Source: Hyaloraphidium curvatum SAG 235-1 (lineage: Eukaryota > Fungi > Monoblepharomycota). Taken from it: a DNA stretch of 64,000 nucleotides. The notes under the pieces are model-generated. The model saw nothing but the letters and a program-made list of their open reading frames with translations, made no database searches and was not told the origin of the DNA. This document shows, piece after piece, positions 20,347 to 64,000 of the stretch. How positions within the stretch are numbered: position 1 is the stretch's first letter; every line of letters starts with the position of its first letter. The DNA is taken from assembly GCA_025558095.1 (NCBI GenBank), contig JAIVFI010000025.1:372001-436000 (forward strand). Direction: 5' to 3'. The position numbers and the translations under genes are program-made.

Positions 20347-21411
20347 TTACGGAGACGGTTGCCGGAGGAAGGCCAGGTCCACCTTTCCGGAGACGGGATG
20401 GCGGGCCTCGAAGGCCTCCGTCCGAAACGCTGCCGAAATTTCGTCCGCTGTCCGATAGGTCGTCACGTTCCCCGAAGGCTCTAGCTCTCGAACTTCGCCG
20501 TAACCCAGCTCAAACAGCATCGTGACGAGCGTCTGCGGATCCTGGTCCGGCGTAACGGCTTTCAGGCTCCTCGGCTCGTACTCGAGCATAATGAGCCGCG
20601 GCTTGTGTTCTCCGAGGACCGACTGTCGGCCTCCCTCCAAAACTCTGCGTTCAAAGCCCTCGACGTCCAACTTCACCACATCCGGCTTCAGGTTCAGCAG
20701 CAGGTCATCCAAGCGCGTCATTGCGACGTAAACGCATGACTCCAACCCGAAGCCTCCCGCGGCCGACTCCTTGACCGCCTCGACACGAGTCCGCGATTTG
20801 TCGTCGAACGCGGATTTCAAACAGGCCGCCGGTCCGCCAGCAACGGAGTCACTAAGAGCGACTTTGTAAAGCTTAATCCTGTGCCGGAAGCCACGATTCT
20901 CGGGGATAAGGAGCGACTTTTCGAAAAGGGCAGCGTGCGCTGGAAGAGGCTCGACGGCAAACACCCGAGCATGCTCCCCCGTTTGGGAGGCAATGAAGAA
21001 GCTGATCGTCCCCAAATTGGCCCCGATATCGAGCACCTTGACGTAACCTCCCTGCCGCTTCGCAACACGCTCCTTTCTGATGTCCTCGATTGCCGAGACC
21101 GCAAGCTTCACCATCTCCCGGTGCTGCAGATCTACTCCCAGCTGACCTATGGATCCCGAGTGGAGGTCCGTCATAGGAGGGTGAACATAAAGCTGGAAGC
21201 TTGGGGAGGCATGGATCGTTGCACGGTAGAAGTATTCCACCCGCGGCTCGAGTTGAATGTTCGGATATTGGCGTGTCGAGAACCCGTCCGGCGTCGACGT
21301 GAAATGAATTGTCCGGCGGGAGTTCACAACGACGTATACGAAGACGACGAACAGCCCGACGGCGAGGCCGCGCCGCGTCATGCGATTCGGCATGACCAGC
21401 GTAAACGCCAT
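20347..21411 (-). CDS. FkbM-family SAM methyltransferase, type II membrane protein
   Basis: VLDIGANLG, VFAVEP, VVKLDVEGFE; N-terminal TM. Confidence 0.9.
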   Translation of the reverse strand: MAFTLVMPNRMTRRGLAVGLFVVFVYVVVNSRRTIHFTSTPDGFSTRQYPNIQLEPRVEYFYRATIHASPSFQLYVHPPMTDLHSGSIGQLGVDLQHREMVKLAVSAIEDIRKERVAKRQGGYVKVLDIGANLGTISFFIASQTGEHARVFAVEPLPAHAALFEKSLLIPENRGFRHRIKLYKVALSDSVAGGPAACLKSAFDDKSRTRVEAVKESAAGGFGLESCVYVAMTRLDDLLLNLKPDVVKLDVEGFERRVLEGGRQSVLGEHKPRLIMLEYEPRSLKAVTPDQDPQTLVTMLFELGYGEVRELEPSGNVTTYRTADEISAAFRTEAFEARHPVSGKVDLAFLRQPSP

Positions 21412-21994
21412 GGCATTTAGCAGCAGCCGTCACGTGTCCAAGAGAGCAAGAATATCAAGAATAGTACGCCCTTAAGGAGAAGTGGATGACGGCGAGCGAA
21501 CTCGCGGCCGCGTCGGGCGGAAGAACAACGGGACGGCACTCGCCGTCAATTGACTGACGACGACAGCTCGCGGGCATTTGCGATCAATATGCATACCAAT
21601 GAACCGAGAGTCATCTACACTGAGCTTTCGTTGCCTATCGAGAAACCAGCCATCTCAACTTGGAGCTTCGCACCCTTCGGGGTTCTACACGTCGTGGGCG
21701 CGGTCACTTAGTCACCATCCGCGATCTGGAGCAAGGAGAATGAAACCCTTCTGAATATGTTTCTGTGGAAGTGCGATTAGCTGTTTAGGTGCTGTCGATG
21801 CGCAGAGGAATACGCGGAGGGGAGGGGAAGGGGACGAGGTGATGGGATTCGCAGATCAGAGGAAAACTCTCTCTTTCTCGGGTTTGAATTCGGTGGCACG
21901 CGACGTGGTCGAGCCGGGTCCGGCGACTTCAGCACGCGTCAGGCGTCTTTCCCTTTGTTCTGCGGACGCAGCGAAGGAGCGGAGCCCTGTCGGC

Positions 21995-31600: not shown

Positions 31601-34600
31601 CTGACCAGGCACGCAGGCACGGGCAACACCTCACCTTCATCTTGCACCGACCGCACTTGAACTCGTCGTGCTGGTCCGCAGGCTCGTTGACCTTGGGCTT
31701 CTTGGCCTTGGACGGCTCGTCGGCGGGTTCCTCGGACGCCCGATCGTCGGGCTGGTCCGCGATCTCGTCGAACTTCCGCTTCTTGACCTGGGGCGGCTTG
31801 TCGGCGGGTTCCTTGGATGCAGGTTTCGGGCCGTCGGTAGGAGGCGGCGCGTGGCGCACGTCGGCACCGCGAGGAGCCGAGGAAGGCGAGCGCAAAAGGT
31901 CTTCGGCAGCGTCGACAAAGATGTCGCGGTCCGAGAGGATCTCATCGCCCGAGGCGGAGCGAGCTCGCGGAGCCGCGGCAGATGCCTGGTCCGCCGCCGG
32001 CTTGGGCAAGTCCGCACCATCCTCCGCGTCTGAGTTGTAATCCGAGTCGTACATGCCGAGCATGGGCAGGGAAACGGGAACGGGGCGGGGAGCCGGCGCC
32101 AGCTTCTTGTCCGAAGACTCTGGCGGCGGCGAGCCCAAGCGCTTGAACCTTCCCGGGTGCTCCTTCGAGCGAAGAGCGAATGGGTCGGCAGCGGGGAGGG
32201 GAGGCACCCGGGGAGCGGCACGAGGCGTCACGGCGCGCTCGGAAACCGGCGAAGGGGAACGGTCCTGGCGAGAGGCGCGCGCCGAAGGAGCGGGAGCAGG
32301 GCCGTTGCGGGGAGCAACGGGCTGTCCGCCCGGCGGAGGATCCGGCCAGGGACCGTTCGGGTCGAACCCGTGGAAGCTGGGATCCTCAGTGGGGAAGACC
32401 TCGAGCTCTGCGGGTTGCGAGGTCGAAGCAGATGGGTCGCAGCATGCCGGTGGCGCGGGCAAAGTAGGCGCATCGGAAGGGATGGGTGGGCAGCGGCAAC
32501 ATGGTCAGCAAAAGCCCGCGATGCCGCGGAATCGATGCCACGCACCGGAGCGGTGGTCGCACTCCTCGCAGTTGCAGACACATGCCACGTCGCAGACGCA
32601 CTTGCCGTCCGGGCGCTTGTAGCACTTGCCAGGACACTTCCGGTGCCTGCGGAAAGGAAACGGCGTGTCAGGCGGCATGATCCAGGCGCACGCCCCGCGG
32701 AAAGCGTACTCCTGCTTCCTGAGGCCGTGCTGGTGGCCGTGCTGGTGGCCATGGCCGTCGCCACGGCGGCCGCGGGACCCCTTGCCCTTGCGAGACTTGC
32801 CCTTCTTGCCGCCGCCGGCCCCGTTCTGCTCGCCCTCCTCGCCTTCCGACCCCGCCTCTTCCGACGCGGACCCCTCATGGCGCTTGCGCTTGCCAGGCTT
32901 CTTCTTCTTCCGCTTCTTGTCGCCGGAGTTGCCCGCGCCCGAACCGCGTCTCCGATCCGGGCCGTCCCGGTCCGAGCCGCCTCCGTTTCCGGAGGCCCCG
33001 GAAGCGCCACCACGGGGCGGGTTGCCCGACGAATCATCGCTGCCCGAAGAAGAAGAGGAGGAGGAAGAGGAACTGTCCGAATCTTTGTCCGGATCGTCCT
33101 TTCCTTGCTCGCCGTCGGAAATGTCCATGCCCTCCTCGGGCCTCAGCACGGCCTTGGCGGTGAGCACGTCGGCGGTTTGCTTGCTGTTGTACGGCGCGTG
33201 GACATCGATCACGGCTCGCGGGTACCTGCAGTCGCGGACGTCAGCAGCATCCCAGGCCAGCGCACGAGCGAACGCAACCCACCTCAAGGCCGCCCTTTCG
33301 GCCAACGCCATCAGCTCCCGCGTGCCCTCGCGCCTCTCCCCCTGCTTGGCAACGGTCTCGGGCGGCGGCCGCTTCCACCGCTTCGGGTACCGCGTGGCGA
33401 GGTTCGGCGCCGAGAAGCCCTCGGCGTTCTTGACGAGCTCGTGGGTGATCTGGCGCGCGATCTCGCAGCCCTGGGAAACGGCAGGCCCGCAGTGCAGGAA
33501 CGGGATGAGCAGGTGCTTTGGCGTGTCCTCCGCGAGGTTGAAGTAGCTGTCCAGGATGCGCATAAAGTCGCGGAACTCGTTCGGGAAGTGGAGCTCGAAC
33601 GTGGCGACGTTGGCGGGACCGCACATCTGATCCAGCATGACACGCGCATTGGGAAAACGCCGGGCGACGTGCATAGGAACGTGCAGCGAAAGGAAGCCGT
33701 CTTCCCGGCTCTCGAACCAGTTCTCGGCGACCTCGTACCGCTTGGAGTGCCGCGAGACCCGGTCGACCGAGGTCGCGGCCACGAGCGTCTTGCCGCGCAT
33801 CCACTCGTCGACGAACGTCGTGATCTTGGTCAGCGAACCCGCGCCTACGGCCGAGACGGCATCCATGGGGAGCACGGCACAGTTGGCGTGTTTGGCGAAG
33901 TAGAAGAAGAACAGCTCCATGAACTCGAGCTGCGTGTTGAGCAGCGAGCTGCCCAGGTCCTCGGAGGACGCAAAGTACTTTTTGCCGCGCGGCGATTCGC
34001 GCGGGACCATGAGGAGGTTGTCGAACCCGCGCATGACGGCCGGGACGAGGTACTGCGGGTGCGAGGGAGGGAGGGAGAGAGGGCAAGGATGGGTGGAGAA
34101 AGCCGGACGGCGGTCAGGAAAGCCATCATCGGCGCAGCAGAGCGGCCCGGCGCACCTTGCGCATCAGGTCAATATAGAGCGACGCCGCCTCGTTCCGGTA
34201 CGAGTTCAGGACCCGCAGCTTCACCGCCCCGGCGTGGCTGGCGACCGATCGCTCCTTCACGTGCACGTTGGACTTTTCGGCCAGGTCGACGAACTTGGCC
34301 AGCATCTCGTCCGCGCCCGGCGCCGAAGGGTCGTAAATGTCGTACCCGCTGCCGTCGGGCATGCCGATGGCGAGCTTGTCCCCCTGCAGGCGGAGGTTGC
34401 GATCCACGTGCTTGTAGTCCGATCCTCTGCGCGAGAAGCGCGAGACGTTGGCCGACACGATCAGGCACTCGCCGGGATTGTCCCGGGGCGGCATGTAGCG
34501 GTTCTGCGGCTTGAGCCTCATCTCGGGGGTGCGGTTGAGTTGCCGGGTGAGCGCGCGCGCGAAATGCTGGCGCCTCCACATGGGGATGGCCTCGTTGGTC

Positions 34601-36621
34601 CGGCCCGCCTCGCTGACGATAGTGACCTTCGAAACCTTCATCGGATCCACGACGAGCTTTGCCGCATCGTCCAAAAGGTTGACTGCCTGCTTGGGCCGGT
34701 CCTCGGCCCGTCCCTGGCGCATGCCCGAGGTGCGCACGGGGATCGTCAGCATCGACGCGTTAATCCTCTTTTCCGGAGGAAGCAGCTCGTCTTCGTCTTC
34801 GAGCGGCTCCTCGCCGTCGCCGCGCTGGGGAGGGAGGCGGCGAGAATGATCGCGAGGCGGAGCGAGGGAGAAAGGAGGGAAGAGCGGAGGAGAGATCGGG
34901 CGCGCATTTCCGTGAGCCATGTGCGCAGCGGGAGCGCGGAAAAGGCCCACCTTGCGCTTCTTGGGCGTCGTGAGGTACGCGGGCTCGAGGTGCCCCGGGT
35001 CGGCCGCCTGCCCCGGCTCCGTCATGTGCGGCACGGGCTTCCGCCGCCCGCGGCCCGGCCGCTTGGCCCGTTCGGCGCCGTCGAGCAGGATCTTGGCCCG
35101 AGACTGGATCTGCGGCGCCGTGCGGCCCGCCTCGTCGATGATGCGCACGTCGGGACCCGCCTTGGCCGCGGTGCGCAGGTCGTGGATCGTCATGCGAGGC
35201 GTCAGCAGGCTCTTTGCCGGCGGGCCCGATCCGAGCGCCTCGAGGTCCAGCGCCTGCACCTCGCCGCCCTGCACGTGCGCCAGATCGTCGACGTCCCTGT
35301 CGACCTCGGCGCCGTCGAGGGGGGGCCGGAAGAACGAGACGAAGGCCGGGTCGACGAGGTCCGTGACGCCGGCGCCGCGCGAGCCCATGACGAAATGCAC
35401 CAGGCGCGGCTCGGCGGTCGTGATGAAGGTCCCGATGTCGGTGCGGTCCCACGGGCGCGTGCCGGGCGGGTCGTAGCCGACGCCGGTGAACCAGACCCGG
35501 GTCGGGAGCGGGTCCTCGAGGCCGCGGAGCCACGCCTTCGCAGCGGCATCGTACCGGCGGTACAGATAGGTGGCAAAGTCCTCGTCCGGGAGGCGTTCCC
35601 CCGCAAGGCCTTTCCTGGTCAGCGCGATGAGCTCCGAGTGGATCAGGTTCACCCCACGCGGAAGCGAAAGCACGCTTTTCAGCTTCCGGTTGTTCCATGC
35701 GGCTTTCTCCTCCGCGCTGGAGTCCCGTTCGTTGAACTGGAACCACATGCGCATGGCGAGGCTCAAGAGGTGCATGGGCGCGATTCTGAGCGGCTGCATC
35801 GCATCAATCATCGCCTGCACTTGCAGCTCGGTGCCCTCGAAGGGCTCGGGCAGGTCGGCGAAGCGAATGCGCGGGACGCCGAGGAAAACATGCACGTAGA
35901 TGTTGGCGTGGCGGGCCGCTTCGTACTTGGCGCCGAAGCGGACCGATCCGTTGAGGGCGTCCGTGCGCGTCGACTGCCAGGCTTCCTTGCGAAGCGGGTG
36001 CGCCGACGACGGATCCGGATCAGGGTTCTTGATGCGCAGCGTGATCGCACGAACGGCGGGCGGCCCTGCGTCGTCGTCGTCGTCGGAGTCCTCCTCCGGC
36101 GTAGCTTCCCCGTCGGTAGGTTCCGCCTCGCGGGGCTTGCCGACGACGCCCCCCTTGCGAGCGAGGGCCGCGATTTCCGGGAACGTGCGGCTCGAGATGG
36201 AAACCTCCATCGAGCTGAACGCGCCGAACGCCCTGATGAACTGAACGAGCAACTCGACGTGCTCCTCCCCGATGTCCGTCCGGAGGAGGAGGGGCGTGCC
36301 GCGGAACCACGGCAGCTGCGGCAACAGCGGCTCCAGCGCGACTTGCCGCCCGTTGAGCTCGTCGTCTTGGTCCGAGTACCTCTGCAGCAGCTTGACCAGG
36401 AGGACGACGACATCGTCGACGCCGACTTCGGGCCGCCTCCCCGTGCCCGGGTCTCGCGGCCGCTCCCGCAGCCACGGGTTGGCCTCCATCGCGGCGGCGC
36501 GGATGGCGGGTTCCGAGGGCGGCGCGGCGCCGGTCGCCCGTGTCGGGGGGCGAGCGAGTCGACGCCTCTTTGGAGGCTGGGGGGGCTGCGAGGAGAAAAT
36601 GGTTGCCGCATGCACCGTCAT
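28660..36621 (-). CDS. Giant (~2,500 aa) spliced protein: two tandem serine-recombinase-like domains, Cys cluster, C2H2/C2HC zinc fingers, coiled coil, C-terminal Cys-rich domain
   Basis: ORFs 34126..36693, 32505..34034, 31455..32462, 28812..31133 and 28660..29472 join in frame through ~6 GT-AG introns; motifs PVRTSG..Q..VSRFSR and VPRESP..SLLNTQ..SVDRVSR. Confidence 0.65.
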
Positions 36622-36981
36622 CGAACAAAGTACAAACAGGCTTTTCTCGACACGCAAAATCGCCGTCGGAGGACGCAAAAACTGCGGATGCAATTGGATT
36701 ACGCTTCGAAAATGTCCATTGGCGGATTTTCCAGGCTACTGCAGCCCGCGGGGACCCACCTCGGGCTTCTCGTCACGTGCGGGTCGGGGAACGCCGGCCG
36801 GAGACCGGCTGGTTGCAAACTCCACTTCTTTTCGACAATCTAAAAGCAACAGGACCAGAAGACTTGACTTCTACCGCAGGTCATCCCGCAGCCGCGGCGA
36901 CCGGTCCCCCAGGTCCCCCAGAGTCCCGCCGCCGCACCCCACACCCCCCCCTTTCCCGGAAAAGACCACGGGAACTGTTTT

Positions 36982-44940: not shown

Positions 44941-47900
44941 TCACCTCTTCAACGAATTCGACTTGTGGATGAAGAAACCACGAAGGCTGTTGGATTTGCC
45001 CTTGTTAGAGTCCCCGACCTTGTCGCTGGTTCCCGCCGGGACCTGCTGGGAGTGCAACAGGCCGTCGGTGCGGTAATCCGCTGAACGCCCGAAGAGCTGG
45101 GCGTCCGCGGCGACGATCATGGCCGGCCTCACGATCGTGGGGCCATCTGCCATGGATCCGTCCGAGTCCGAGAAGACGGACCGGGCCTCGGGCGATGCGC
45201 TGCCTGCCGTCGAGGAGCTTGCGCGCTTGTCGCGCTGAGCGGACGGATGCATGCTGAGGGAGCCCTCAAGCGTTGCTGCAGGGGCCAGCCCCAGCCTGTC
45301 GGCGATGGTTCTGAGGGTCTCCTGATAGAGCCGGGCCTGGTTGGCCATCTGATCCCGGTGGAACTTGACGAGGTCGTGGAAGCGCCGCTCCTGCTCGTCG
45401 GCGGCGGCGTCCGCGGCCCGCAGGGTCTCTTCGCGAATGGAGAAAACGTCCGCTTCCAGCTTCCTGAAGTCGCCCGTCAATGTGGTCGCTTTGTGCTCCA
45501 TCTCGGCAGACTTGTTGCGGGCCGCGTCGATGTCGCTGACACGGTCGGCCCAATGCCGCACGAGCGACTCCATCTCCGAGAGCCGGGCCTCGACCGAGGC
45601 CATGGGCGTCTCCGCAATGCTGCTGCCGAGCTGCAGCGACTCCACCGAGGCCGGTCTCCTGCGGGATCGTACAGAGCCTGTCGCGGGAGAATCCAGGCAG
45701 GGCTGCGCGGCGGCGGCAGCAGCCCCTGCAGCCATGGCCATCTCGAGGTCGATCTGCAGCGCATCAATGCGTTCCTGCATGCGGCGCATGGAATCCTGGA
45801 CCTCGGTCTCGGCGGGGCCCCGTGCGGCTTCCAGGTCCTCCAGCTTCCGGTTCACCAGCTCGAGGGTGCGAGCGACGGAGGCGGTGTTTTGTTCCGCAAT
45901 CCACTGCATCTTGCTCTCGACCAGCGAGGCAACGAGCTCCTGGATCTCACTGTCCTTGGCCCCCGCGGCGGGCACGGGGCTCAAAGCCCGCGCCTCCTGC
46001 AGCTCCGCCAGCTTGGCAAAGGCGGACGACTTGACCGCAACCACCTCCTCGACCAGCGAGGCATTCTCCCTCCTGAGCGACTCGACCACCGTCTTGGAAT
46101 CCTCTTCGAACCTGCGCAGGTCCTCGAGGTCCGCCGTGTGCTTGGCGAGGTCCGCGTTGACCCGGGCCACCACGTCGGCGATCTGGCCCTGTAGCTTTCC
46201 CACCGTGGCTTCGAGCTGCTGCGGGCTCGTCGGGCTGGGCTCGCCCTTGCTCGGGCTCTCCTGCTGCATGCTCAGCGCGCGCTCGACCTTGGCCGCGATC
46301 GCCGAGATCTCGGACTGCATCCGGTTGCGCACGCTCAGGGCGACCGACTTTTCCAGGTCCGCCAGGCGCTCGTCGAGGGCGTCCCGCGCCCTCGCCTGCT
46401 CGGTGCGGAGGACATCCTGGTCGGCGGCCAGCTCCAGCATGCGCGTGCGCGCCTCGCCGCGGTCCTTGTCCACGAACTCGCGCAGCTTCAGGATGACGGC
46501 CTGGTGCCCGTCCTGCCGCTCCGTCAGCGCGACGGTGCTCTGGATCAGCGCGTCCAGGCTGCTGCCCAAACTGGCCATGCGGGCTTCGGTGTCGGCGCGG
46601 AGCTTCTTGGAGGCCTCGCCGACGAGGTCCTTGGCGTGCTGCAGCAGCGTCTTGCTGAAGCCGTCCACGGCGTTGAGCCGCTCGTCCATGAGCTCGAGCC
46701 GCTTGGCCCCGCGCGCGGCCTCCTCGGCGATCCGGGCCTCGACGGCCCCCGCGGCCCGGCGCTCGGCCTCGGCGAAGCGCGCATTCAGCATCCCCGAGAG
46801 CTCCTTGCGCTGCTTCTCCTGCGCCTCCCGCACGCGGCCCATCTCGGCGTCGAAGGCCTGCTGCATGGCATCGCGCTCGCCGAGCTTGGAGTGCATCTCG
46901 ATCAGCGTGCCGCCCAGGCCGCGCATCTCCCCCGCGATGCCCGAGAGGTCCGCCTGGAAGGCCGAGGTGATCGAGGCCACCTGGGCCTCGAACCTGTCGG
47001 CGGTCACACGGAGGGCTTCGTCGCGCTCCGCGGTGGCCTTGGCAAACACGGCGTCCACTTCGGCGCGCAGGGCCTCGTCGCGCTCGGCGGCTTTTTCTGC
47101 GGCAGCCTGCACCTTGGCCTCCATCTCGCAGGCCGCGAGACCAATCTTGACCGACTCCTGCTGGACCGACTCGAGCTGCGCGGCAACCGAGGCCTCGAGC
47201 GAGTCCATCCGGGGAGCGAGGGGCAGGAGCGCTTCGACCTCGCGCTGCATCCTGCCCACGTCCGCGCGCAGGCCCGCGGCCTCGGCGACCCGCGTCGCGG
47301 CCTCGTTGGCTTTCACCGCAGCCTCCTCGGCTTTTGCCGCTGCGTCTCCGGCAACGGTGGATGCCTCGCCGACGGCCCTCTCGAGCCCGACCAGCTTGCC
47401 GCCCACGCCGGCGACCTCGGCCCGCACGCCCTCCAGCTCCCGCTTGGACGCATCCGCCTCCCCTTTCACAGCATCCACCTCCCTCCTGACGCCCACCAGC
47501 ACCTCTCCGGTGCGCACGCACCCGTCCTGGCACTCCTCGATCGCCCTCCCCGTGCTCTCCGCCAGCCCGCGCATCTTCTCCACGTTCTCCTGCACGTGCG
47601 CCCACATCCCCTGCACCTCGCCCTCCAGCTCCTTCACGCAGCGCATCACCTCGCCTTTGGCCCCCTCGGCGCGGGCGGTCCACAGCTCCGTCAGCTCGGC
47701 CTTGAGCCCCGGCATCCTCGCGTCGAGCGCCTCGAGGGCGGCGGCGCGGGCGTCCTCCAGGGCGCGGGCGGCGCCCGAGTCGAGGGCTGCGCGGAGGGCG
47801 TCGGGGGCCGCCAGGGCGGGGGCGAGCTTGGAGTCGAGGTCGGCGCGGAGGCGGTCGAAGGAGGCGGCGACGGTCTGCTCGATGAGGGCGTCGATCGCGC

Positions 47901-48249
47901 CGGCGAGCTTGTCGGGGAGCACGGGGACGGCGGGCTGCGGTGCGGTTAGATCACAAATATAGCCGGGAGTGCGAAACGAGCCCACTTCCTCTCCGGCATT
48001 GGGGGCACCTCGGTGTGCGGGAGCGGGAGCGTTCTTCGGCGGCGAAGCGGCGGCGGGCTTCGGCGGGCTGCGCGCGGGCGACGGCGCCTTTGCCGGCGCC
48101 ACGCGGTTCGACTGCGGGCCGGGGAGCGGCAGCGAAGGGCCGCTGGGCTTGCGCGGGGGCGACGGCTTGGGCGTGCGCGATGTTGGCGCGGGCGACACGG
48201 GCCGCGACGCCGGGCGCGACGGCGGGCCGAGCCGCGGGCCTGACGACAT
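44941..48249 (-). CDS. Large coiled-coil protein (~1,090 aa), function unknown
   Basis: Long A/E/L/R-rich heptad ORF; Pro-rich N-terminus; probable in-frame intron near 47.94-47.99 kb. Confidence 0.75.
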   Translation of the reverse strand: MSSGPRLGPPSRPASRPVSPAPTSRTPKPSPPRKPSGPSLPLPGPQSNRVAPAKAPSPARSPPKPAAASPPKNAPAPAHRGAPNAGEEVGSFRTPGYICDLTAPQPAVPVLPDKLAGAIDALIEQTVAASFDRLRADLDSKLAPALAAPDALRAALDSGAARALEDARAAALEALDARMPGLKAELTELWTARAEGAKGEVMRCVKELEGEVQGMWAHVQENVEKMRGLAESTGRAIEECQDGCVRTGEVLVGVRREVDAVKGEADASKRELEGVRAEVAGVGGKLVGLERAVGEASTVAGDAAAKAEEAAVKANEAATRVAEAAGLRADVGRMQREVEALLPLAPRMDSLEASVAAQLESVQQESVKIGLAACEMEAKVQAAAEKAAERDEALRAEVDAVFAKATAERDEALRVTADRFEAQVASITSAFQADLSGIAGEMRGLGGTLIEMHSKLGERDAMQQAFDAEMGRVREAQEKQRKELSGMLNARFAEAERRAAGAVEARIAEEAARGAKRLELMDERLNAVDGFSKTLLQHAKDLVGEASKKLRADTEARMASLGSSLDALIQSTVALTERQDGHQAVILKLREFVDKDRGEARTRMLELAADQDVLRTEQARARDALDERLADLEKSVALSVRNRMQSEISAIAAKVERALSMQQESPSKGEPSPTSPQQLEATVGKLQGQIADVVARVNADLAKHTADLEDLRRFEEDSKTVVESLRRENASLVEEVVAVKSSAFAKLAELQEARALSPVPAAGAKDSEIQELVASLVESKMQWIAEQNTASVARTLELVNRKLEDLEAARGPAETEVQDSMRRMQERIDALQIDLEMAMAAGAAAAAAQPCLDSPATGSVRSRRRPASVESLQLGSSIAETPMASVEARLSEMESLVRHWADRVSDIDAARNKSAEMEHKATTLTGDFRKLEADVFSIREETLRAADAAADEQERRFHDLVKFHRDQMANQARLYQETLRTIADRLGLAPAATLEGSLSMHPSAQRDKRASSSTAGSASPEARSVFSDSDGSMADGPTIVRPAMIVAADAQLFGRSADYRTDGLLHSQQVPAGTSDKVGDSNKGKSNSLRGFFIHKSNSLKR

Positions 48250-48626
48250 CGCGGCTAAGGCGATGCGGCGGACTGCGGGGTCGGCGGGGCTCCGCGGCCT
48301 TGTTAGGCGGGTCGGATTCGGGATGTGGTGACAAGGCCAAACAAAGGACGCACCACCAGGCGACCCCTCCAAGTCGATTGCGTCACACTCCGACACCGGA
48401 CAGGGGACATGCAGGCAGCAACCGATCGGATAGAAACCATCCCAGCCCATCCATTCACCATTACCAGCAACAAATATCCGGGCCGGCGGCCGAAATGTAC
48501 ACCCATCTACGCAACGAATCATGGCATCCGCGAAAGCGGCATCTCGTGTCCGATGGCCGCGCACACCGCGGGCCAGCATGCGCGTGCGCAGTGCGGGCCG
48601 CGGTGCGGGGCGGGGGGAGGGGGGGA

Positions 48627-49316
48627 TCAGAGGCCGCGGGACTTCCAGACGGGGGTGTCCTTGATCTGCGCCCCAGAAGAGGGATGCGTGCGCGGCAGGG
48701 CGGGGGGCATGCAGGGGGTCGGGGAGGGAAGGAAGCAAGGCGCAGAAGGAAGGAGATGCGGGGCAGGCGAGGGCGGAAGAGGGGATCACGGGGATCAGTG
48801 ATCAGATCAGCGGCGCCCCGGGGCCGGCACCGCGCACCTGCTCGGCGGTCGACTTGTTGACCCGCTCGGCGTCCCACTCCTCGATGTGGCCCTGGTTGGC
48901 GCGGATGCGCAGGTCCTGGTCCGACCGCAGCTTGTCGCTCATCTTGTAGATGGCGAAGATGGATGCGGCGCCGACGGGGATGGCTGCGGGGGCGGGTCAG
49001 ACGGGGCGCGGGGCGGCGTGCGGGTGCTGCGCACCGAGGGCGATGATCTCGTAGTTCTTCTTGAAGGCTGGGAGGGGCGGGAGGGGTGCGGAGGGGGGCG
49101 AGCGGGGGGTGTTGGGGAGGCGGGGACGGCGGGGTGCGGGGCGCGGGGGGCGGCGAGGGCGGCGCGCGGGCGGCGGGGAGCGGGGCGGCGGCGGCGGAGG
49201 GCGCGTCAGCGGGCTGCGGCGGCGGATGGACGGGCGCGCGGCGCGCGGGGGCCGTCCGGAGTTGCGCCGTGGCGCGACTCACCGGCGGGGCCAATCCAGC
49301 GTCCGATGACTCCCAT
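48627..49316 (-). CDS. Small mitochondrial NDUFA4/MLRQ(COXFA4)-like protein, 4 exons
   Basis: Spliced MGVIGRWIGPA|AFKKNYEIIAL|AIPVGAASIFAIYKMSDKLRSDQDLRIR..EQ|IKDTPVWKSRGL*; single TM; strong codon bias. Confidence 0.6.
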
Positions 49317-55805: not shown

Positions 55806-58800
55806 ATGGCGTCCCCGCGCCCCACCGCCCGCATCTCCCAGCTCTCCTCGCACCTCTGCGCCCCCCCTCCCCCGCTCTCCGCCTCGCCCACCGACGCGCC
55901 CTACGATTCGGAACCCGCCCCGGCGTCCGAATGGGACGCCGAGCTCGCGGAGCTCCGCCTCCGCCTCAAGATGGCGCGCGAGGTGCCCGCGTCGGACCCC
56001 GGCCGCGTGAGGCAGGCGCAGCAGGGCAAGCTGATGGTGCGCGACCGCGTGGCGGGGATGCTGGACGGGGGCAGCCTGGTGGAGATCGGGTCGATCGCGG
56101 GCAAAGGGACGTACGATGAGGAGGGGAACGTACGAGGGTTCACGAGGGCAAACTACGTCGCGGGGCGCGGGACGGTGGGGGGGAGGCCGGTGGTGGTGGG
56201 CGGAGACGACTTCTCGGTGAGGGGAGGACACGCGGACGGGGCCATCTGGCGCAAGGCGCAGTACACGGAGCAGATGGCGCGGGAGCTGCGGATCCCGCTC
56301 ATCAGGCTGCTCGACGGGAGCTCGGGGGGCGGCTCCGTGGCGAGCATCCTGAAAAGATGGATTCGGATATGTGTAGGCCGATTGGTCGACCGATCCGGTG
56401 GGCAGAGTGGGGTGGGTGCTGTCCAAGCAGTCGAAACCCCCAGCGAACCCCCGCCCCGCCCGGCGTGTGATTACATACTCGCGGAAGATTCCTAGCTTCA
56501 TTTCATTGCTTCCTTTAGATTATGTGTTCCCGCCGGGAATTCGAGGCTTTTCATTCTCGGTCGTTCAGCAGACGTAATTGCCCCTCGAACGCGCCCGATC
56601 CCGCGCCCCCCTCCCTCCCGCGCTGCCCCCGAGCGCGAAGCGACGTCCACGGTTTCCATCTGCGCCCGAAATGGATGCCGAATCCGGGCCACTGGGCCGG
56701 CGCCGTCGCCCGGAACACCCGAGATGGCGCCGTCCCTAGGAACCGCCGTCCCTCGTGATCCAGCCACGTCGGGACGATGCCGTCGTCCCCCGAGACGCCG
56801 TTGACGGCGGTGAGCACCTCTAAAGGCCGACGGCAGCGCCAAAGATGGGAATCATGACGCGTCCGAGCAGGTTAAGGTGCCTGGTAGACGTCCCTTCGGC
56901 GACGACTGTCCGCCGCGTTCCTGCCCGAGTACGCACCGCAGCGACGATGCAGGCGGTCAAGTCACATTCCGTAGGTATTGCCACCGTCGGATCCGGCCCC
57001 GCGGGTAGGTTGCCGACGTGTTTCCGTCCCCAGGTGCTCGCCCGTGCGGAAACGTGCTCGCGGGACAGGAAGGCGGCCTCCAAGAGCCGCGGGCCCGACC
57101 TTTCGACGTGAAATCACGACACTTGCCGTCCAGTATCGTCAGATTGGCATCCCGACAGAGCCCCGCGGAGTTGGTCGCCCGGGGGCGATGACGGTGCGCG
57201 AGGCGCGACGCTGCCGTGGCCAAACGGCCCCGAGGATGCCCCGACGGCGGCGGAACCGGCGAGCTCTGCCACCATCAGGAACCTCCCGGGACCGTGACCG
57301 CGGCGTCGGGGCACCGGCGGGGGAACGGGGCGGCGACGTCCCACGAAATGGGACGCCGTCTGGCGCACGGGGGAGAGCCGCCACCGGGTTGCCTGCCCGG
57401 CAGGGGGCGTTTGGAAGCTGCTTCTTTCGGCTTTTGAGCCCGCTTGCCAAGTTCCGGGGCGCTTGTTAGGGACGCCCGCGGGGATAACAGAGATGGCGCG
57501 CGTGGATGCGACCACCAATCATTTTCGAAGCTTCATCTTCGAAGCTTCGCGCGCAGGACAAGCGCAGCGAAGCGCGGCTCGCTGGAACCGCCGGCAAAAG
57601 GCAGCGCAGGCCCTTGGAAGCGAGGAAAGAAGCTCAGCGTTTTCAATTCGGACGAGCAGGAGGCAGAAGGGCCCAGAGCGTGCACGTTCAAAGTCAAATC
57701 AGCAGCTCTACAACTCACCCTCGTCCTCCTTCCTAGCGTCGCGCGCCGCCTCCCTCGACCGCCTCAGATCCTTCGCAGTCTTCAACCTGCTGGGCAACCT
57801 CCGAGACGTCGGTGCGGGAAGGGTCGGGGGGAGCGAAGAAGGAGCGATGCTGGGCTGCGGGCGAAAGAGGGGAGAGTTGAGGATCGAAGCTGCACGTGGT
57901 ACGTCAGAGAAGGCCAGTTGACAACCAGCTGGAGCGACTTACTGTTCTCCAGATCCTCCGTCTCGTCGTCAGACGAGCGGTCGAGGGTGTACAACGAGCG
58001 ACGGCCCAGGTCGTCGTCGTCCAAGTGCGGTGCCTTGCGTTTGCGGATGGGCGGCTTGAAGAAGGAGGCAGGAAGGCGAGGGTCAAGATCTCGTCGACCT
58101 CCCCGCTGTCGAACCTGCCCACCTCCGGGTTTTGCTCGCGGGTGTTTGTCTCCAGGTCTTGCTCGTTGTCGCTCTGCTCCGGGTCGTGCGTCTCGTCAAA
58201 GTCATCTGCAAAGAGAGCGATGATCAGCAGGGAGACTGTCGACGACAGGGGCGCTCACCGAAGGGGACGAAAGCCAAGCGCTCCAGCCCGGCCGCGATCT
58301 GGTGCATCACAGACTGGCCTTGCGGGGCTGCCTGTCGACGGGCTCCGGGGCCGCGCTTGCGACGCTCGTCTGGGAACATGTCCGGGCCGAGGAAGAGGCG
58401 GTCGCCGACCTCGGGGCCCTCGTGCGCGATGAAGGCCCTGAGCTCCTTCTCGGTCCTGGTCGAGCGCGTTTCCTTGAAGGCCTTGATGAAGAACTGCGAA
58501 GGAAACGAAGATCAGCGCGCGGTCGGGTCTGTGCCGACGCCCCACCTCAGCCGCTGCATGCCGCGGGACCTGCTTGGTCTTCTTGACGAGGTCCAGGAGC
58601 GGCTTGGCTGCACGAGCGTCGGGGTCGATGCCCATGTCGCGAAAGGTGCGACGCCTGTGGTCGTTTTCGCCGACCAGCTCGGTCTTCAGGAACTCCTTGT
58701 CAATCATCTTGTGGCCCGGGTAGGCGCGCCGCGCTCGAGCCGAGAGGGGCCCGCCGCGGCGGATGCTGGAGGGCCTTTCGGCCTTGTCTGCAGGCTGCAA

Positions 58801-61800
58801 CGAACGAAGCTTCAGATCACGGTGGGAACAAGCGGGGCGGCGTGCTGCTCACGTTGAGGTGGTCGAGGTGTGCCATCTCATGGACCATCTTCAGCTCCAC
58901 AAGGTTCTCGAACTCGACTTCTTCGTCCTCGTCGGCGTACATCTCGGGCATCAGGCGACAGCCGCAGTCGGCGGGATTCGCGAGGCCGATGACACAAGGA
59001 AAGAAGCCTTTGTCGTGCGGGTGTGCTGCCTGGAGGATTCGCGCCATCTCGCCGAACTTGTACCGGTGGTAAGAGTGGTCTTCGGCCGCGGCCGCGAGGA
59101 CGAGGAGCCTGCGAGCGGCTTCGCGGTTGGCGGACCGTGCCGAGCCATCGCGGATCGAGGAGGGCGGTGCGGCGCTCGCGCGCCCCTTGCCCTTGGCGCC
59201 CGCGGCGGCGGCGAGAAGCTGAGACGACATTTTGGCGGAGGGTAGCGGCACTCTTGGAGGTGAGGTGAGGTGAGGAGATTCTCGGTTTTGTGAGGACCGA
59301 TTACTCAGCGGTCGCGCCTTTGTCGCACCCCGAAGGGCGCGAACCATCGTACGGTTTTGGTCGCGAATCGCCTTCGCGAACCATGCCTATATATGGCCCG
59401 AGATCCAAGGGGCAGCCCGCAACCGCTCGCCCCCCACGCGCTCCACCATGATGGGGCCCGTCAGCCCGTCGTCCTCGCCCCCTCCGCCGGCCTCTCTGCT
59501 GACGGCTCCCACGACGGCCGCCCCCGCGACCAAGCCCCACAAGAAGGGCCGCGCCGAGAACGCCCCCGCGCCCCCTCCCTCCGCGCCCACTCCCTCTGCG
59601 CCCCCTCCCTCTGCGCCGGCCTCGAACGCCGGGTCCGCCTCCGCCCCGCCGGCTCTCATTCAGAAGAGGGGACCGCGGCCGGGAGCGCCGAACGCAGGCC
59701 GGAAGCCCAAGGACGTCTCACATGACCCCAAGAAGCTTGCCAAGCAACAGGCGCAAAAGGCCTACGACAAGCAGCGGAACGACGCGAAGCGTGCCGCGGC
59801 GGCCGCGAAGGAGTTGACGACCTGGGAGGCCAAGACCGCCGAGAAGAGGGCGAAGGAGCTGCAGAACATCGCGGACTCGACGGCGAGGAAAAAGGAGGCG
59901 ATCGCGCAGGGCCTGGTGAGTCACGCCGATCTCGGGTCTTGTTCGCTGACTTCCCGTTGCACAGCTCGTCCCCGGCACCGAAGACAAGCAGCGCGAGATG
60001 GAGTACAGTTACGACAAGTACACGGAACGCCGCTTGCTCACGGGCTGGATCAAGTTGTTCCTGGTGGGGCACGCGCTTTCCCTCTCTGCTGTCCCCATGC
60101 TGACTCTAGGCCAGTGGCTCGAGCAAGACGGCAAGTGCGCGGGCTGCGGTGGGCCGCTCGAGGACCTGATTCTCGACTGCAATCACGCTTTCGGCAAGGT
60201 GAGCTGGAACCGTGCTGGTCACTTAAGGTCCGTTCATTTCGCCTCCTCCCAGAAGCGCTTCCGGCTCGCCAAATCCAGCACTCACAAGCCAAGCGACACG
60301 ATACGCGAGGCCCCCAAGACGGATCTCCGGCATATAATCTGCCACAAGCTTGAAACCCGGCGCCAGATGAAGGCTGGAGAGGTCAAGTTTGGGCGGTCCG
60401 GTTTCTCGAAGGGCCACGGGTCGGCCGAACAGGAGTAATCTATGAGAAAAACAGTTGTAGACGGCTTCCGTACACTGCGAAGCACATTCAATTCAAGGCA
60501 GATTCGAAGGCCTTGTTTGTGTCAACAAGCTCCTCTTTCCGCTCCGCGCACTCCCAGCAGACGCGCATCGACCGTGTGCTCCTTACAGTCGCGTATTCCT
60601 GCCTCGTGTCGCTCGCGGAGAGCTCGCCCGCGGGCGCTTCCGTGGCAGTGCGGCGGTGTCGCGCATCGGCATCGGGTCGACCGTTCGCGAACGTGCGTCC
60701 GGGGCAGCAGCGACGGCGTCTCGACCATCATCATCACGGCAGCGACAGCGGCACGGCGCGGATGCGGCACTTGAACGCCTACCGGCCCGCTCAACTCCGG
60801 TTGGAGCTACAGTTATATCCCTCCCAGCGTCAAGATGGAGCACATGGTGAAGCTGCTGGCGGAGGTGCCGGTCGTGGCGGCGTGCCTGGGGCCTGCTGTG
60901 GGCTTGGCTGCAGCCAAGGCAACCCTCACCCATTTCAGCGTGATGTGCAAGGTGGATATGGCTTCCTCCTGCTCACCGTCTCCTTTCTTACCACTTGCAA
61001 TTGTCACCGGCACGCAGGGCATCGGATCGCTCTTCGCCGCGGGCCCCCCCGTCGTCTCCCACGCCACCCACGAGACCGTGACCAAGAACCAGCTCGGCGG
61101 CCCCTCGATCCACTGCCGCAACGGCACCGTGGACAACGAGTGCGTCGACGAGGGCGAGTGCTTCGCGACGCTGGCGCGGTTCCTGTCGTACCTGCCGTCG
61201 TCGCGGTACGAGCTGCCGCCCTGTGTACCGTACCAGGGGAGGAGAAACAACTGGACGCCCGCGGGGCTGATGGTGGGGGAGGACGCACAGGTCATCGTCG
61301 ATGCGATCCCGCACAACCGCAAGAAGCCCGTGGGCCGACCGGCGCCCCTCGTCGTCCTTATTCGCTGACCGACCGCTCCGCAGTACGACCCCAAGGTCTA
61401 CGTCGAGCGGATCGTCGACGAGGACACGCTGTTCGAAATAGGCCCCGATTGGGGCCGCGAGCACCGCACCTTCCTCGCCCGGCTGGACGGCCGCCCCGTC
61501 GGCGTCCTCGCCTCGGACCCGCGCTTCGGCGGCGCCGCGCTGACCGCCCTGGCGTCGTCCAAGATCGGGCGGCTGGTCGGGATCTGCGCCACCTTCAAGC
61601 TGCCGATACTCAACTTTGTCGACTGCCCGGGGTTCGCAATCGGGACGAGGGCGGAGAAGGAGGCGACCATCAGGCTGGGAAGCAGGCTCGCATGTGTGAT
61701 GTTCGAGAGCAAGATCCCGTATTTTACCGTCATCGCGAGGAAGGTGGGCACTCTCTGGTCACCCTACGTGAAGCGGAGCTGATCTCTCGCCTCCGGACAG

Positions 61801-62272
61801 TGCTTCGGGGTCGCTGGCTCCATCCTCGCCAACCCGGGCCAGGGCAACATCGAGCTCTCTTCCGGCATGGACCTCCGCATCGGGTGGTTAGTGCTGCCCC
61901 CGGATCCGTTACCCGCTGCCGCTGACCGTGCCCCGCAACAGGCCCATGGTCGAGGCCGGCAGCCTGCCCATCGAAGGCGGCATCGAAGCCGCCTTCAAGG
62001 GCGAACTCGAGGCCATCGCCGACCCCGCGGCCCGCGCGGCTCGCAAGGAGGTCATCGACCGCGAAATCCGCGCCTTCATGAGCCCGCTGCGCACTGCCGA
62101 GGCGTTCGACCTCGAGGAGCTGGTTGACCCGCGGAGGACGAGGAGCCTGGCGGTGCCGTGGGTCAGGAGGATGTACGAGGTGCGGCTCCCGCAGCTGATG
62201 CACTTGGAGATGGGGAGGGCGGACGGATGGGGACCCAATGCGGTGGGCGCCAAATCGACGTACTTGCCGTGA
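55806..62272 (+). CDS. Acyl-CoA carboxylase carboxyltransferase (PCC/MCC beta-like), split by a 4.4-kb insertion
   Basis: 5' part: QGKLMVRDRV, DDFSVRGGHADG, RLLDGSSGGGSV (to ~56361). 3' part from ~60806: SYIPP, LGPAVG, FAAGPPVV, LGG, ARLDGRPVG, FVDCPGFAIG. Confidence 0.85.
57533..59230 (-). CDS. Hypothetical protein in the insertion (degenerate Cys/His motif), multi-exon, possible frameshift near 58.1 kb
   Basis: ORFs 58817..59347 and 58255..58800 and downstream segments linked by GT-AG introns; FPC..DCGC..HEMAH. Confidence 0.5.
59448..60438 (+). CDS. Putative zinc-binding HNH endonuclease with coiled-coil N-terminus, 4 exons
   Basis: Spliced WLEQDGKCAGCG..LILDCNH..K|KRFRL..IREAPKTDLRHIICHKLET. 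Confidence 0.65.
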
Positions 62273-62320
62273 TCGGGAGGAAAGGAGAGTCTATAGAGGT
62301 TTTACAATCGTCTTTCAAAC

Positions 62321-64000
62321 TCATGCCTTGATCGGCGTCAGCACTACGCGGACACCGTCCTTGGCTTTCAGTGTGCCAGTGAAGAGCACCTTGAAGGTCC
62401 CAACGTCCGGTTTCCACTCGTACCGCCGAACGAGCTCGGCCGTCGCCATCCGTCCCTCGGCCAGAGCGAGACGCTCTCCAGCACACCGACGAGCGCCGTT
62501 GCCGAACTGTTTGCGGGGCAATCAGTTTCGCTGACCAACCAGACCAAGGGCCAACTCACGGGAGCGTAGGCAAAGAAGTTCACGGCGCCGCCGTTGGGGT
62601 CGTCGAGGAACCTCGAAGGATCCCACTTGTCCGGGTTCGATTTCCAGAAGCGCGGGTCGGTCTGCGCCCCGTACACGAACGGGAGCACCTGGTCGCCCTT
62701 GCGGAACTCGATCGTGGCGGGCTTGCCCGTGGCCGTGTCGGTGTACTCGTACACGAGGTCGCGGTTCATGACGCGGCCACCACCGTACGGTGCGGATGGG
62801 TACAGACGCAGCGTTTCTGCACGGATGGTGAGCCAAGAACGAGGCGAACAGCGCAAAGCAGCTCACCCTTCAAGCAAGCGTTGAGGATCGGCATGGCTTC
62901 CAGCTTCTCGAGGTTGGTGATGAGCTCGCCGGCTCCCGTTGCGGGGCCGAAAGCGTCTAGGACCTCGGCGCGAAGCTTGGACTGCCAGTCAGTGTTCACC
63001 GAAAGCTCGTGCGCCATAAACGATAGAAGCGCGGCGGTGGTCTGCAGACAGCTCAGTCAACGGAGGTAGAACTGATTGCTGCGGAATGACCCACGTCGTG
63101 ACCCGCAAAGAGCAACGTCACAAGCTGCCTGACAATCTCGTCATCCTCCTTGAGCCAATCTGGTACCTTTGCGCTCCTGAAGAAATCGTCCAGGATCGAG
63201 ACCCTGTCCGGATCCTCGCCCCTCTTCCGCCTTGCGACGTTGCGGAGCACGAGCTGGTTGATCGCATCCATGTCCGATTCGTACTGCTTCACTATCTTCG
63301 GGAAGAGACTCCAGATTGGGCGAGCGAAAGTGGCTTGGAGCGCGCTAAGCAGCTGCGACAGGCCGAGCACGCCGTCCCAGGCCTTCAGGTAGCGTTTCCC
63401 TTCCTCGGTCGTCTGGGCGGCCACCGCCTCGCCAAACACGAGCCGGCACACGACGTCGAACGTGAGGTTATTGAACAAAGCCTGCAGCTCGACTTTGCCG
63501 CCGTTGGCCGCCCGTTCCTTTTCCACCCTATCCAGAAAGACCGCAAACTGCTCTCGCATCACAGGGAGATAGCTCCGGATAGCGGGTGCCGCAAAGGTCT
63601 TGGTTCCGAGGTGTTCCCGAGCCTCCCTCCACTTCTGCCCGTTCGGCATCAATATGAGACCACCTGCATGCCGCCGAAGGATCTCGGCGTAGGGATGGGA
63701 GCGGTCGAAGGCCTCCCAGAGCGGTCCGGCGAACACCTCGCGCAACACGGCGGGGTCTGCGACGAGCACAGAGCGGGACCACGGCTTGAAGATGTTGTAG
63801 ATCCTGAGAACGGGCGAACCGAGCTCGCGAATGGTTTCCTTGTGATAGTCGTGGCTATCTCCCAAGCGAGAAATCGGAACCTGCCGAATGAACGGGATCG
63901 AGACGAGCGTCGGAACGCCATCTCTGAAGCTGAGGTATCGCCGGCGGTAGAGCTCCGCGAGAAGAAACAGGACCGAAATGCCGAGCGTCAGACTCGTCCA
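62321..64000 (-). CDS. Cytochrome P450 (5' end beyond window)
   Basis: FAGHD|TT, ETLRLYP, WDPSRF, FGNGARRCAG heme motif. Confidence 0.95.

What the first reader, a model, noticed from the sequence alone, without database searches (positions are those of the whole stretch)
59448..60438. Phage/virus-type HNH nuclease gene with three spliceosomal introns inside the insertion
Seen: CAGC..LDCNH..KKRFRL..IREAPKTDLRHIICHKLET. Known: phage and giant-virus zinc HNH proteins follow CxxC..(D/E)FDH..K..I..E..KC.L.CxxCH...T. Variants here are DH to NH and CxxC to HxxC. Inference: a homing-endonuclease-like driver acting on a nuclear protein-coding gene, possibly spreading by cut-and-gene-conversion.
Basis: partly seen in the sequence, partly recalled or inferred. 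Interest (0 to 1): 0.75.

Follow-up and report, generated by a model that had tools for sequence, protein, structure and literature searches.

The report
Spliced HNH gene in fungal insert
A 4.4-kb insert that splits a spare copy of a fungal metabolic gene carries a spliced gene for a protein of a bacterial/viral HNH family, likely a DNA-cutting passenger of an unclassified mobile element rather than a homing drive.

Summary
The gene 59448-60438 encodes 278 aa, and contigs of one public run splice all three introns at the predicted sites. The spliced C-terminus matches a profile of 111 viral zinc-HNH domains at 23.8 bits (0 of 2000 shuffles). The catalytic and helix histidines are kept, and both odd variants (NH, HxxCH) occur in natural viral members. 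The family is also common in bacterial and archaeal genomes, and no donor can be named. The gene lies in a ~4.45-kb insert (about 56355-60807) that splits a carboxyltransferase gene of a Hyaloraphidium-like fungus. Both halves are still open frames and an uninterrupted paralog is transcribed. The insert shows no self-splicing RNA, rescue fragment, transposase, terminal inverted repeats or Helitron ends. It holds a second orphan gene and a segment with diverged copies. Classical homing is disfavoured. Most likely the HNH is accessory cargo of an unclassified non-autonomous element; nuclease-driven self-copying is not excluded. Activity is untested. The scan's notes held no look-alike.

The parts
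59448..59915 (+). HNH gene exon 1: Pro/Ala-rich start, basic GRP/GRK stretch (AT-hook-like by eye, recalled motif), Lys/Ala-rich segment
   Evidence: X1 contig piece 59627-59914; start codon inferred
59916..59964 (+). intron 1 (49 nt, GTGAGT..ACAG)
   Evidence: spliced in X1 contig
59965..60063 (+). exon 2, predicted helix before the zinc knuckle
60064..60114 (+). intron 2 (51 nt, in frame, no stop)
   Evidence: spliced in X1 contig
60115..60198 (+). exon 3: CxxC knuckle (60136-60147) and D-C-N-H with the predicted general-base His (60175-60186)
   Evidence: weak PHROGs endonuclease VII hits E 0.03-0.16
60199..60252 (+). intron 3 (54 nt, in frame, no stop), in the loop after the catalytic His
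   Evidence: spliced in X1 contig; fills the gap against viral relatives
60253..60438 (+). exon 4: K-x-F-x-L, E-x-x-K, HxxCH (60331-60345) with the predicted metal-binding His, stop
   Evidence: X1 contig 60251-60711
56355..60807 (.). the whole insertion, about 4.45 kb, ends uncertain by about 6 nt; no TIR, ATIR or Helitron ends; TGGA near both junctions is at chance level
   Evidence: both junctions read through by X1 contigs
55806..56354 (+). 5' half of host acyl-CoA carboxylase carboxyltransferase (PCC-beta-like) gene, open frame ending ..GGGSVASILK
   Evidence: PF01039; 66%/54% to H. curvatum P0001/P0003
60808..62272 (+). 3' half of the host gene, open frame from YSYIPP, four introns spliced in X1
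   Evidence: 53%/49% to P0001/P0003
57708..59230 (-). gene A: predicted 404-aa orphan gene, divergent from the HNH gene, five predicted introns (none seen spliced), HEMAH motif at the end of exon 1
   Evidence: open model, third-position GC 0.75-0.94 throughout; no homologs for the parts searched
56692..56811 (.). non-coding segment with at least two diverged copies elsewhere in the same run
   Evidence: two further X1 contigs with 9 substituted places and 2 indels that then run on into other sequence
56629..59155 (+). spliced plus-strand transcript(s), introns 56810-56870, 56971/56975-57033 and 57899-57952, antisense to gene A, no convincing ORF
   Evidence: strand inferred from GT..AG orientation

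Best explanation
The gene is a transcribed, three-intron nuclear gene for a zinc-knuckle HNH protein of a prokaryote/virus family, and it likely rides as a DNA-nicking or DNA-cutting accessory inside a non-autonomous mobile element that likely landed recently in a spare carboxyltransferase gene. SHOWN: splicing, HNH homology, retention of the catalytic and helix His, a 4.45-kb insert between two open gene halves, an expressed uninterrupted paralog, and diverged copies of part of the insert. INFERRED: (1) An HNH gene came from a bacterium, archaeon or virus long ago and was naturalised; it gained three host-type introns, third-position GC of 0.81-0.87 and a basic N-terminal arm. (2) It was taken up by a DNA element whose mobilising enzyme is supplied in trans and leaves no TIR or clear target duplication (tyrosine-recombinase- or HUH-like behaviour). 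(3) The nuclease helps the element by nicking or cutting target or vacated DNA, as proposed for the His-Me nuclease of KolobokP and by analogy with Fanzor cargo. (4) The carboxyltransferase was an incidental target, tolerated because paralogs exist.
For: Splicing and read-through of both junctions. HNH profile match with controls; Atlas top clusters include a viral HNH cluster (PF01844 on 44% of members) at 0.92. Both host halves are open, with no stops or frameshifts, which points to a recent event. Two diverged copies of 56692-56811 run on into other sequence, as expected of a dispersed family. An uninterrupted paralog reads K-T-G-H-S-Y-I-P-T across the site, the same as H. curvatum P0001. 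There is no rescue fragment. Precedents for nuclease cargo in eukaryotic elements: PMC3627910 (passages) and PMC9587614 (abstract and passages).
Against: No autonomous partner, transposase or recognisable end structure was found. Only about 120 bp of the insert is shown to be repeated, and that stretch could be a separate small repeat nested in it. No second copy of the HNH gene or of gene A was found in any protein library or among the listed X1 pieces. The Cys of the family's KC pair is Thr here and the domain sits on a very long branch, so activity may be lost. No clean cut restores the 91%-conserved Gly at the site, which suits repair capture as well as transposition.
Confidence: 0.5

Rival explanations
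1. Transposase-free, nuclease-driven element: the HNH protein itself would cut chromosomal DNA, and host break repair would copy the cassette into the break at non-allelic sites with little or no homology.
For: The HNH is the only recognisable enzyme in the insert. It is spliced and keeps its key residues. The junctions are imprecise, with 1-4 nt of shared sequence and no TIR or clear TSD. WHO elements mis-home to ectopic sites (PMC7282813, Discussion).
Against: No second full copy is shown. There are no homology arms or rescue fragment. No mechanism is evident that would make repair choose this cassette as template. Flanking RNA shows no guide-like structure.
Confidence: 0.2
2. One-off capture: a stretch of ordinary host DNA holding two orphan genes (one of them a long-domesticated, horizontally acquired HNH) was copied or moved into a double-strand break; the HNH had no part in the move.
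For: Host-type introns and codon GC; no element ends; imprecise junction; no close HNH paralog seen. Eukaryotic PF01844-group proteins are already catalogued (1020 in Table 1 of PMC5714182, passage).
Against: Diverged copies of the left non-coding segment and a spliced antisense transcript over gene A are typical of repeat families (inference). Both genes lack homologs in annotated proteomes, including that of H. curvatum, which contributes proteins to the searched set; repeat-masking would explain that.
Confidence: 0.2
3. One reading: allelic homing. The HNH would cut the uninterrupted carboxyltransferase allele and gene conversion would copy the insert, knocking the gene out each time.
For: The nuclease motif is intact. 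The site lies about 5-6 codons after the near-invariant DGSSGGGSV motif. Paralogs would soften the cost.
Against: No self-splicing or rescue. Local conservation is below average (14th-29th percentile). Halves without decay point to a recent first insertion rather than a long-established homing site. Homing needs heterozygous diploids; Hyaloraphidium is, as I recall (no call), known only to reproduce asexually.
Confidence: 0.08

Closest known systems
Small zinc-knuckle HNH proteins of phages, giant viruses and prokaryotes (PF01844-like; His-Me group 1 of PMC5714182; CxxC..[DE]F[DH]H..K..E..KC...CANCH subfamily)
   Same: Colinear 68-residue match; best pair L112 shares D-C-x-H-A-x-G-x-K-R-F. 46 of 100 alignment members hit PF01844 at E<=0.01. 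The alignment-guided model matches phage, Medusavirus and Clandestinovirus HNH models (E 4e-3 to 3e-2).
   Different: Three spliceosomal introns, a ~165-aa low-complexity basic N-terminal part, HxxCH in place of CxxCH, Thr in place of the KC cysteine, at most 30% identity, nuclear fungal location.
KolobokP His-Me finger nuclease (PMC9587614)
   Same: A small His-Me nuclease carried as a second gene by a eukaryotic nuclear DNA element and proposed to aid its multiplication.
   Different: KolobokP nucleases are I-PpoI-like His-Cys box enzymes in animal elements with a DDD/E transposase, long direct repeats, TIRs and (for the Kolobok superfamily) TTAA duplications; none of these was found here.
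Fanzor1 cargo in eukaryotic transposons, including non-autonomous Helitron2 CRe-1/2/3 (PMC3627910)
   Same: A prokaryote/virus-derived nuclease-family gene, multi-exon, carried by non-autonomous nuclear elements.
   Different: Fanzor is TnpB-related (RuvC and RNA-guided: recalled); here the fold is HNH, no structured RNA was found, and Helitron2 ends are absent.
WHO homing elements at yeast FBA1 (PMC7282813)
   Same: A stand-alone nuclease gene associated with a nuclear protein-coding metabolic gene in a fungus, without self-splicing.
   Different: WHO is an intein-like protein with a zinc finger, lies downstream of its host gene and replaces its 3' end so that the gene survives; this insert interrupts the gene and has no replacement fragment.

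Membership tests
Zinc-knuckle HNH (PF01844-like, KC..CANCH subfamily) | Profile-level homology over the whole domain | tested here: met
   23.8 bits, 0 of 2000 shuffles; upstream-only profile 14.3 bits, 0 of 2000
Zinc-knuckle HNH (PF01844-like, KC..CANCH subfamily) | N-terminal CxxC knuckle | tested here: met
   CAGC aligns with the invariant columns C19/C22
Zinc-knuckle HNH (PF01844-like, KC..CANCH subfamily) | General-base His preceded by a metal ligand | tested here: met
   His invariant in 111 of 111; the preceding N is seen in 4 of 111 viral domains and in 0 of 109 matched prokaryote domains
Zinc-knuckle HNH (PF01844-like, KC..CANCH subfamily) | Helix His after the second zinc pair | tested here: met
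   CH kept; Thr four residues later, as in 45 of 111
Zinc-knuckle HNH (PF01844-like, KC..CANCH subfamily) | Second zinc pair CxxC | tested here: inconclusive
   HxxC here; one natural viral member has HxxCH (L247, 35 bits, 1 of 6 pattern matches); zinc binding not shown
Zinc-knuckle HNH (PF01844-like, KC..CANCH subfamily) | Curated Pfam PF01844 score | tested here: inconclusive
   No hit, but only unspliced frames and single exons could be scanned
Zinc-knuckle HNH (PF01844-like, KC..CANCH subfamily) | Beta-beta-alpha-metal fold | tested here: inconclusive
   Single-sequence model pLDDT 43.7; the alignment-guided model (71.6, with intron 3 read through) is biased towards the family; viral HNH top hits; PDB best Z 4.0, HNH 4h9d Z 3.6 (rmsd 4.2, 64 aligned), tied with LIM/RING
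Zinc-knuckle HNH (PF01844-like, KC..CANCH subfamily) | Metal-dependent DNA nicking or cleavage | not testable with these tools
   needs an assay
Intron- or intein-encoded homing endonuclease | Lies in a self-splicing element that restores the host product | tested here: not met
   No Rfam match at E<=1; the host frame stops inside the insert; contigs read unspliced through both junctions
Intron- or intein-encoded homing endonuclease | Insertion at a highly conserved site | tested here: inconclusive
   14th-29th percentile locally, but next to GGGSV (85 of 120 homologs aligned)
Intron- or intein-encoded homing endonuclease | Cleaves the empty allele | not testable with these tools
   no empty allele or assay available
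WHO-type homing element | Duplicated replacement fragment of the host gene | tested here: not met
   No carboxyltransferase-like segment in the insert by HMM or tblastn; blastn gave one 21-nt match only
Helitron1 / Helitron2 | TC..CTRR ends, or asymmetric terminal inverted repeats with hairpins | tested here: not met
   None over 100 end-pair choices on both strands; terminal hairpins not unusual (19-42% of 30-mers fold as well)
DDE/TIR transposon (incl. KolobokP) | Terminal inverted repeats, target duplication, DDE transposase | tested here: not met
Tyrosine-recombinase element (Crypton-like), non-autonomous | Short terminal direct repeats | tested here: inconclusive
   TGGA at both junctions; a shared 4-mer arises in 20% of random pairs, and using it adds one codon relative to homologs
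RNA-guided HNH (OMEGA/HEARO-like) | Adjacent structured non-coding RNA | tested here: not met
   Rfam none; z +1.54 for 60439-60807 and -0.92 for 56355-56810; 56811-57700 not folded

The most novel reading that the evidence does not exclude
A eukaryotic nuclear mobile element with no transposase, reverse transcriptase or self-splicing RNA, whose only engine is an intron-bearing HNH nuclease of prokaryote/virus ancestry: it cuts host DNA and is copied into the breaks by host repair, with gene A as helper.
Probability: 0.17. Interest if true: 0.85.

Novelty: new variant of a known kind. Interest (0 to 1): 0.52.

Why it matters
It adds a further nuclease type (after Fanzor and the KolobokP His-Cys box enzymes) to the prokaryote/virus-derived cargo that eukaryotic nuclear elements have naturalised with introns, here in a little-studied early-diverging fungal lineage. 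It also points to an element family with no recognisable ends or transposase, which annotation pipelines would miss. If the HNH proved to be the mobilising enzyme, this would be a new mode of nuclear transposition. At present it is one locus with untested activity.

Tried and rejected
Whole-genome search: no genome held, so copy number and empty sites are untested. Homolog searches with the unspliced HNH frame: none at E<=10 among 89-284-aa proteins; one hit among 1.84 billion representatives, a repeat protein that is spurious. Phage tblastn gave 8 chance capsid hits, PDB sequences none, IMG/VR 3 loci matching only the C-terminal tail outside the HNH motif, which I rejected, and metagenomes none. 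All these queries carried intron read-through, which lowers sensitivity. Gene A exon 1: no relatives; Atlas Tudor-like hits at or below 0.77 are leads only. I first read gene A as frameshifted near 58090; a 68-nt GTGGGC..AAG intron gives an open frame instead. Its introns were not seen spliced; contigs show presence, not absence. No joint across the insertion was listed, which is weak for the same reason. Endonuclease VII assignment: PHROGs E 0.03-0.16 on exon 3 only; the C-terminal half fits the KC..CANCH subfamily instead. Phylogeny (quick tree only, careful search unfinished): long branch, no supported group; the reference set was viral and motif-selected. The best pairwise scores are split between viral (27.0 bits) and prokaryote (26.7) members. 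Terminal hairpins and TGGA are at chance level. No other copy of the insert lies in the window. Run X2 (share 0.11) gave only short identical pieces and no joints. Literature: 10 searches listed no paper describing this gene or such an element in monoblepharids; the library lacks most subscription papers and I read no supplements. PMC13533422 (passages) shows giant-virus genes in zoosporic fungal genomes, but its main text does not name Hyaloraphidium, monoblepharids or HNH; its supplements may.

Full report
Setting. The window is gene-dense, GC-rich eukaryotic DNA with ~50-60 nt introns and ordinary housekeeping genes. No whole genome is held. The gene flanking the finding is a PF01039 carboxyltransferase whose best relatives are two Hyaloraphidium curvatum proteins (66% and 62%). 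A contig of run X1 that aligns to its 5' half with 18 listed differences continues as K-T-G-H-S-Y-I-P-T, the same as P0001. I infer a monoblepharid fungus, H. curvatum or close kin, with at least one uninterrupted, expressed paralog.

The observation. Splicing 59916-59964, 60064-60114 and 60199-60252 gives one 278-aa frame from 59448 to 60438. Contigs of X1 skip these three introns and four host introns. This is one run from one study, labelled RNA only by guess, but GT..AG skipping shows that the contigs derive from spliced RNA. The first 60 codons are thinly covered, so the start is inferred.

Is it an HNH? Direct searches with the unspliced frame found no real relative. The Atlas put an HNH cluster (44% PF01844, 93% viral) third at 0.92, behind two unnamed clusters at 0.93 and 0.92. 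PHROGs gave only weak His-Me hits (E 0.03-0.47). I collected relatives by a recalled motif: 121 viral loci gave 121 domains, 114 with an upstream CxxC, 111 distinct. Their profile scores the spliced C-terminus at 23.8 bits; the best of 2000 shuffles scores 10.3. A profile made only from columns upstream of the selecting motif still gives 14.3 against 9.0, so the match is not circular. The unspliced frame is the best of 858 window ORFs. In an alignment with 99 of the 111 domains, the CxxC, the general-base His, E, K, and the CH of the helix are invariant, and intron 3 fills a gap. Asn before the His occurs in 4 of 111 viral members. HxxCH occurs in one natural viral member, 1 of 6 pattern matches. 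The KC cysteine is Thr. A single-sequence model failed (pLDDT 43.7). An alignment-guided model (71.6) matches viral HNH models, including giant-virus ones (best E 4e-3, none under 1e-3), but PDB matches are weak and tied with LIM and RING zinc fingers; this model is not independent evidence. Homology to the family is established; activity is plausible but untested.

Virus-type? The same motif occurs in about 4200 viral and about 2800 prokaryote-genome stretches (estimates). The best pairwise scores are 27.0 bits (viral) and 26.7 bits (prokaryote), and a quick tree leaves the sequence on a very long unplaced branch. The donor cannot be named. Giant viruses do leave genes in zoosporic fungi (PMC13533422, passages), which is a possible route, not a shown one.

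The insertion. P0001 residues 46-200 map to 55896-56354 and residues 203 onward map from 60808, so about 4.45 kb sits between Lys and Tyr-Ser-Tyr. Both halves are open frames, which suggests a recent event, and contigs read through both junctions. No clean cut restores the Gly found in 91% of 85 aligned homologs, so the junction is imprecise. There are no terminal or asymmetric inverted repeats and no Helitron ends (Helitron2 definition from PMC3627910, passages). The TGGA at both ends and the terminal hairpins are at chance level. No Rfam family and no unusually stable RNA was found in the two stretches folded. Pfam showed no transposase, recombinase or reverse transcriptase in the insert frames scanned. 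The insert also holds a divergent, predicted 404-aa orphan gene A with five predicted introns, a spliced plus-strand transcript antisense to it, and a 120-bp non-coding segment with two diverged copies among the X1 contigs.

Mechanism. Homing elements of the known classes spare the host by splicing or by replacing a gene end (PMC7282813, abstract and Discussion). Neither holds here: no carboxyltransferase-like piece exists in the insert and the host frame stops inside it. The site is of below-average conservation, though close to GGGSV. I therefore put allelic homing at 0.08. The best reading (0.5) is nuclease cargo in a non-autonomous element of an unrecognised family, analogous to Fanzor cargo (PMC3627910) and to the His-Me nuclease of KolobokP (PMC9587614, abstract and passages). 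Against it, no partner enzyme, shared ends or second full copy was found. Nuclease-driven copying by host repair (0.2) and one-off capture of host DNA (0.2) remain open, and only a genome-wide copy search can separate them.

Novelty. HNH-group proteins in eukaryotes are catalogued (PMC5714182, passages), and nuclease cargo in eukaryotic elements is known, so this is a new variant of a known kind. Ten literature searches listed no description of this gene or element, and this scan's notes held no look-alike. Earlier notes on other genomes supplied the WHO and rescue-fragment comparison, which I then tested. Interest 0.52.

Noticed in passing
window 58856-58900 (-): Gene A exon 1 ends in VHEMAHLDHLN, an HExxH motif like that of zinc metalloproteases (recalled); no Pfam, NCBIfam or meaningful PHROGs match. 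The preceding segment gave only weak Tudor-like Atlas hits (0.77 or less).
   Followed up: partly
window 56629-59155 (+): Spliced transcript(s) antisense to gene A, with alternative donors at 56971 and 56975; possibly a silencing RNA.
   Followed up: partly
window 59838-60114: An X1 contig joins 59838 to 60114 with non-canonical ends (CC..CA, letters between not known); unexplained.
   Followed up: no
window 60251-62272 (+): Contigs cover the HNH 3' end, the right junction and the spliced 3' half of the host gene without a gap; the orphaned half is still transcribed, perhaps by read-through from the insert, and one contig runs on into the convergent gene.
   Followed up: partly
window 62300-64000 (-): Convergent intron-containing gene that reads like a cytochrome P450 (by eye, not scanned); three introns spliced in X1.
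   Followed up: no
window 33904-36840 (+) and 44944-48801 (-): Long open frames (979 and 1286 aa) without a Pfam match at E<=0.001.
   Followed up: no
window 20350-21429 (-): FkbM-family methyltransferase in one long open frame (PF05050).
   Followed up: no
L247 (IMG/VR contig): A viral HNH with the rare HxxCH zinc site, the only such family member among 6 pattern matches.
   Followed up: partly
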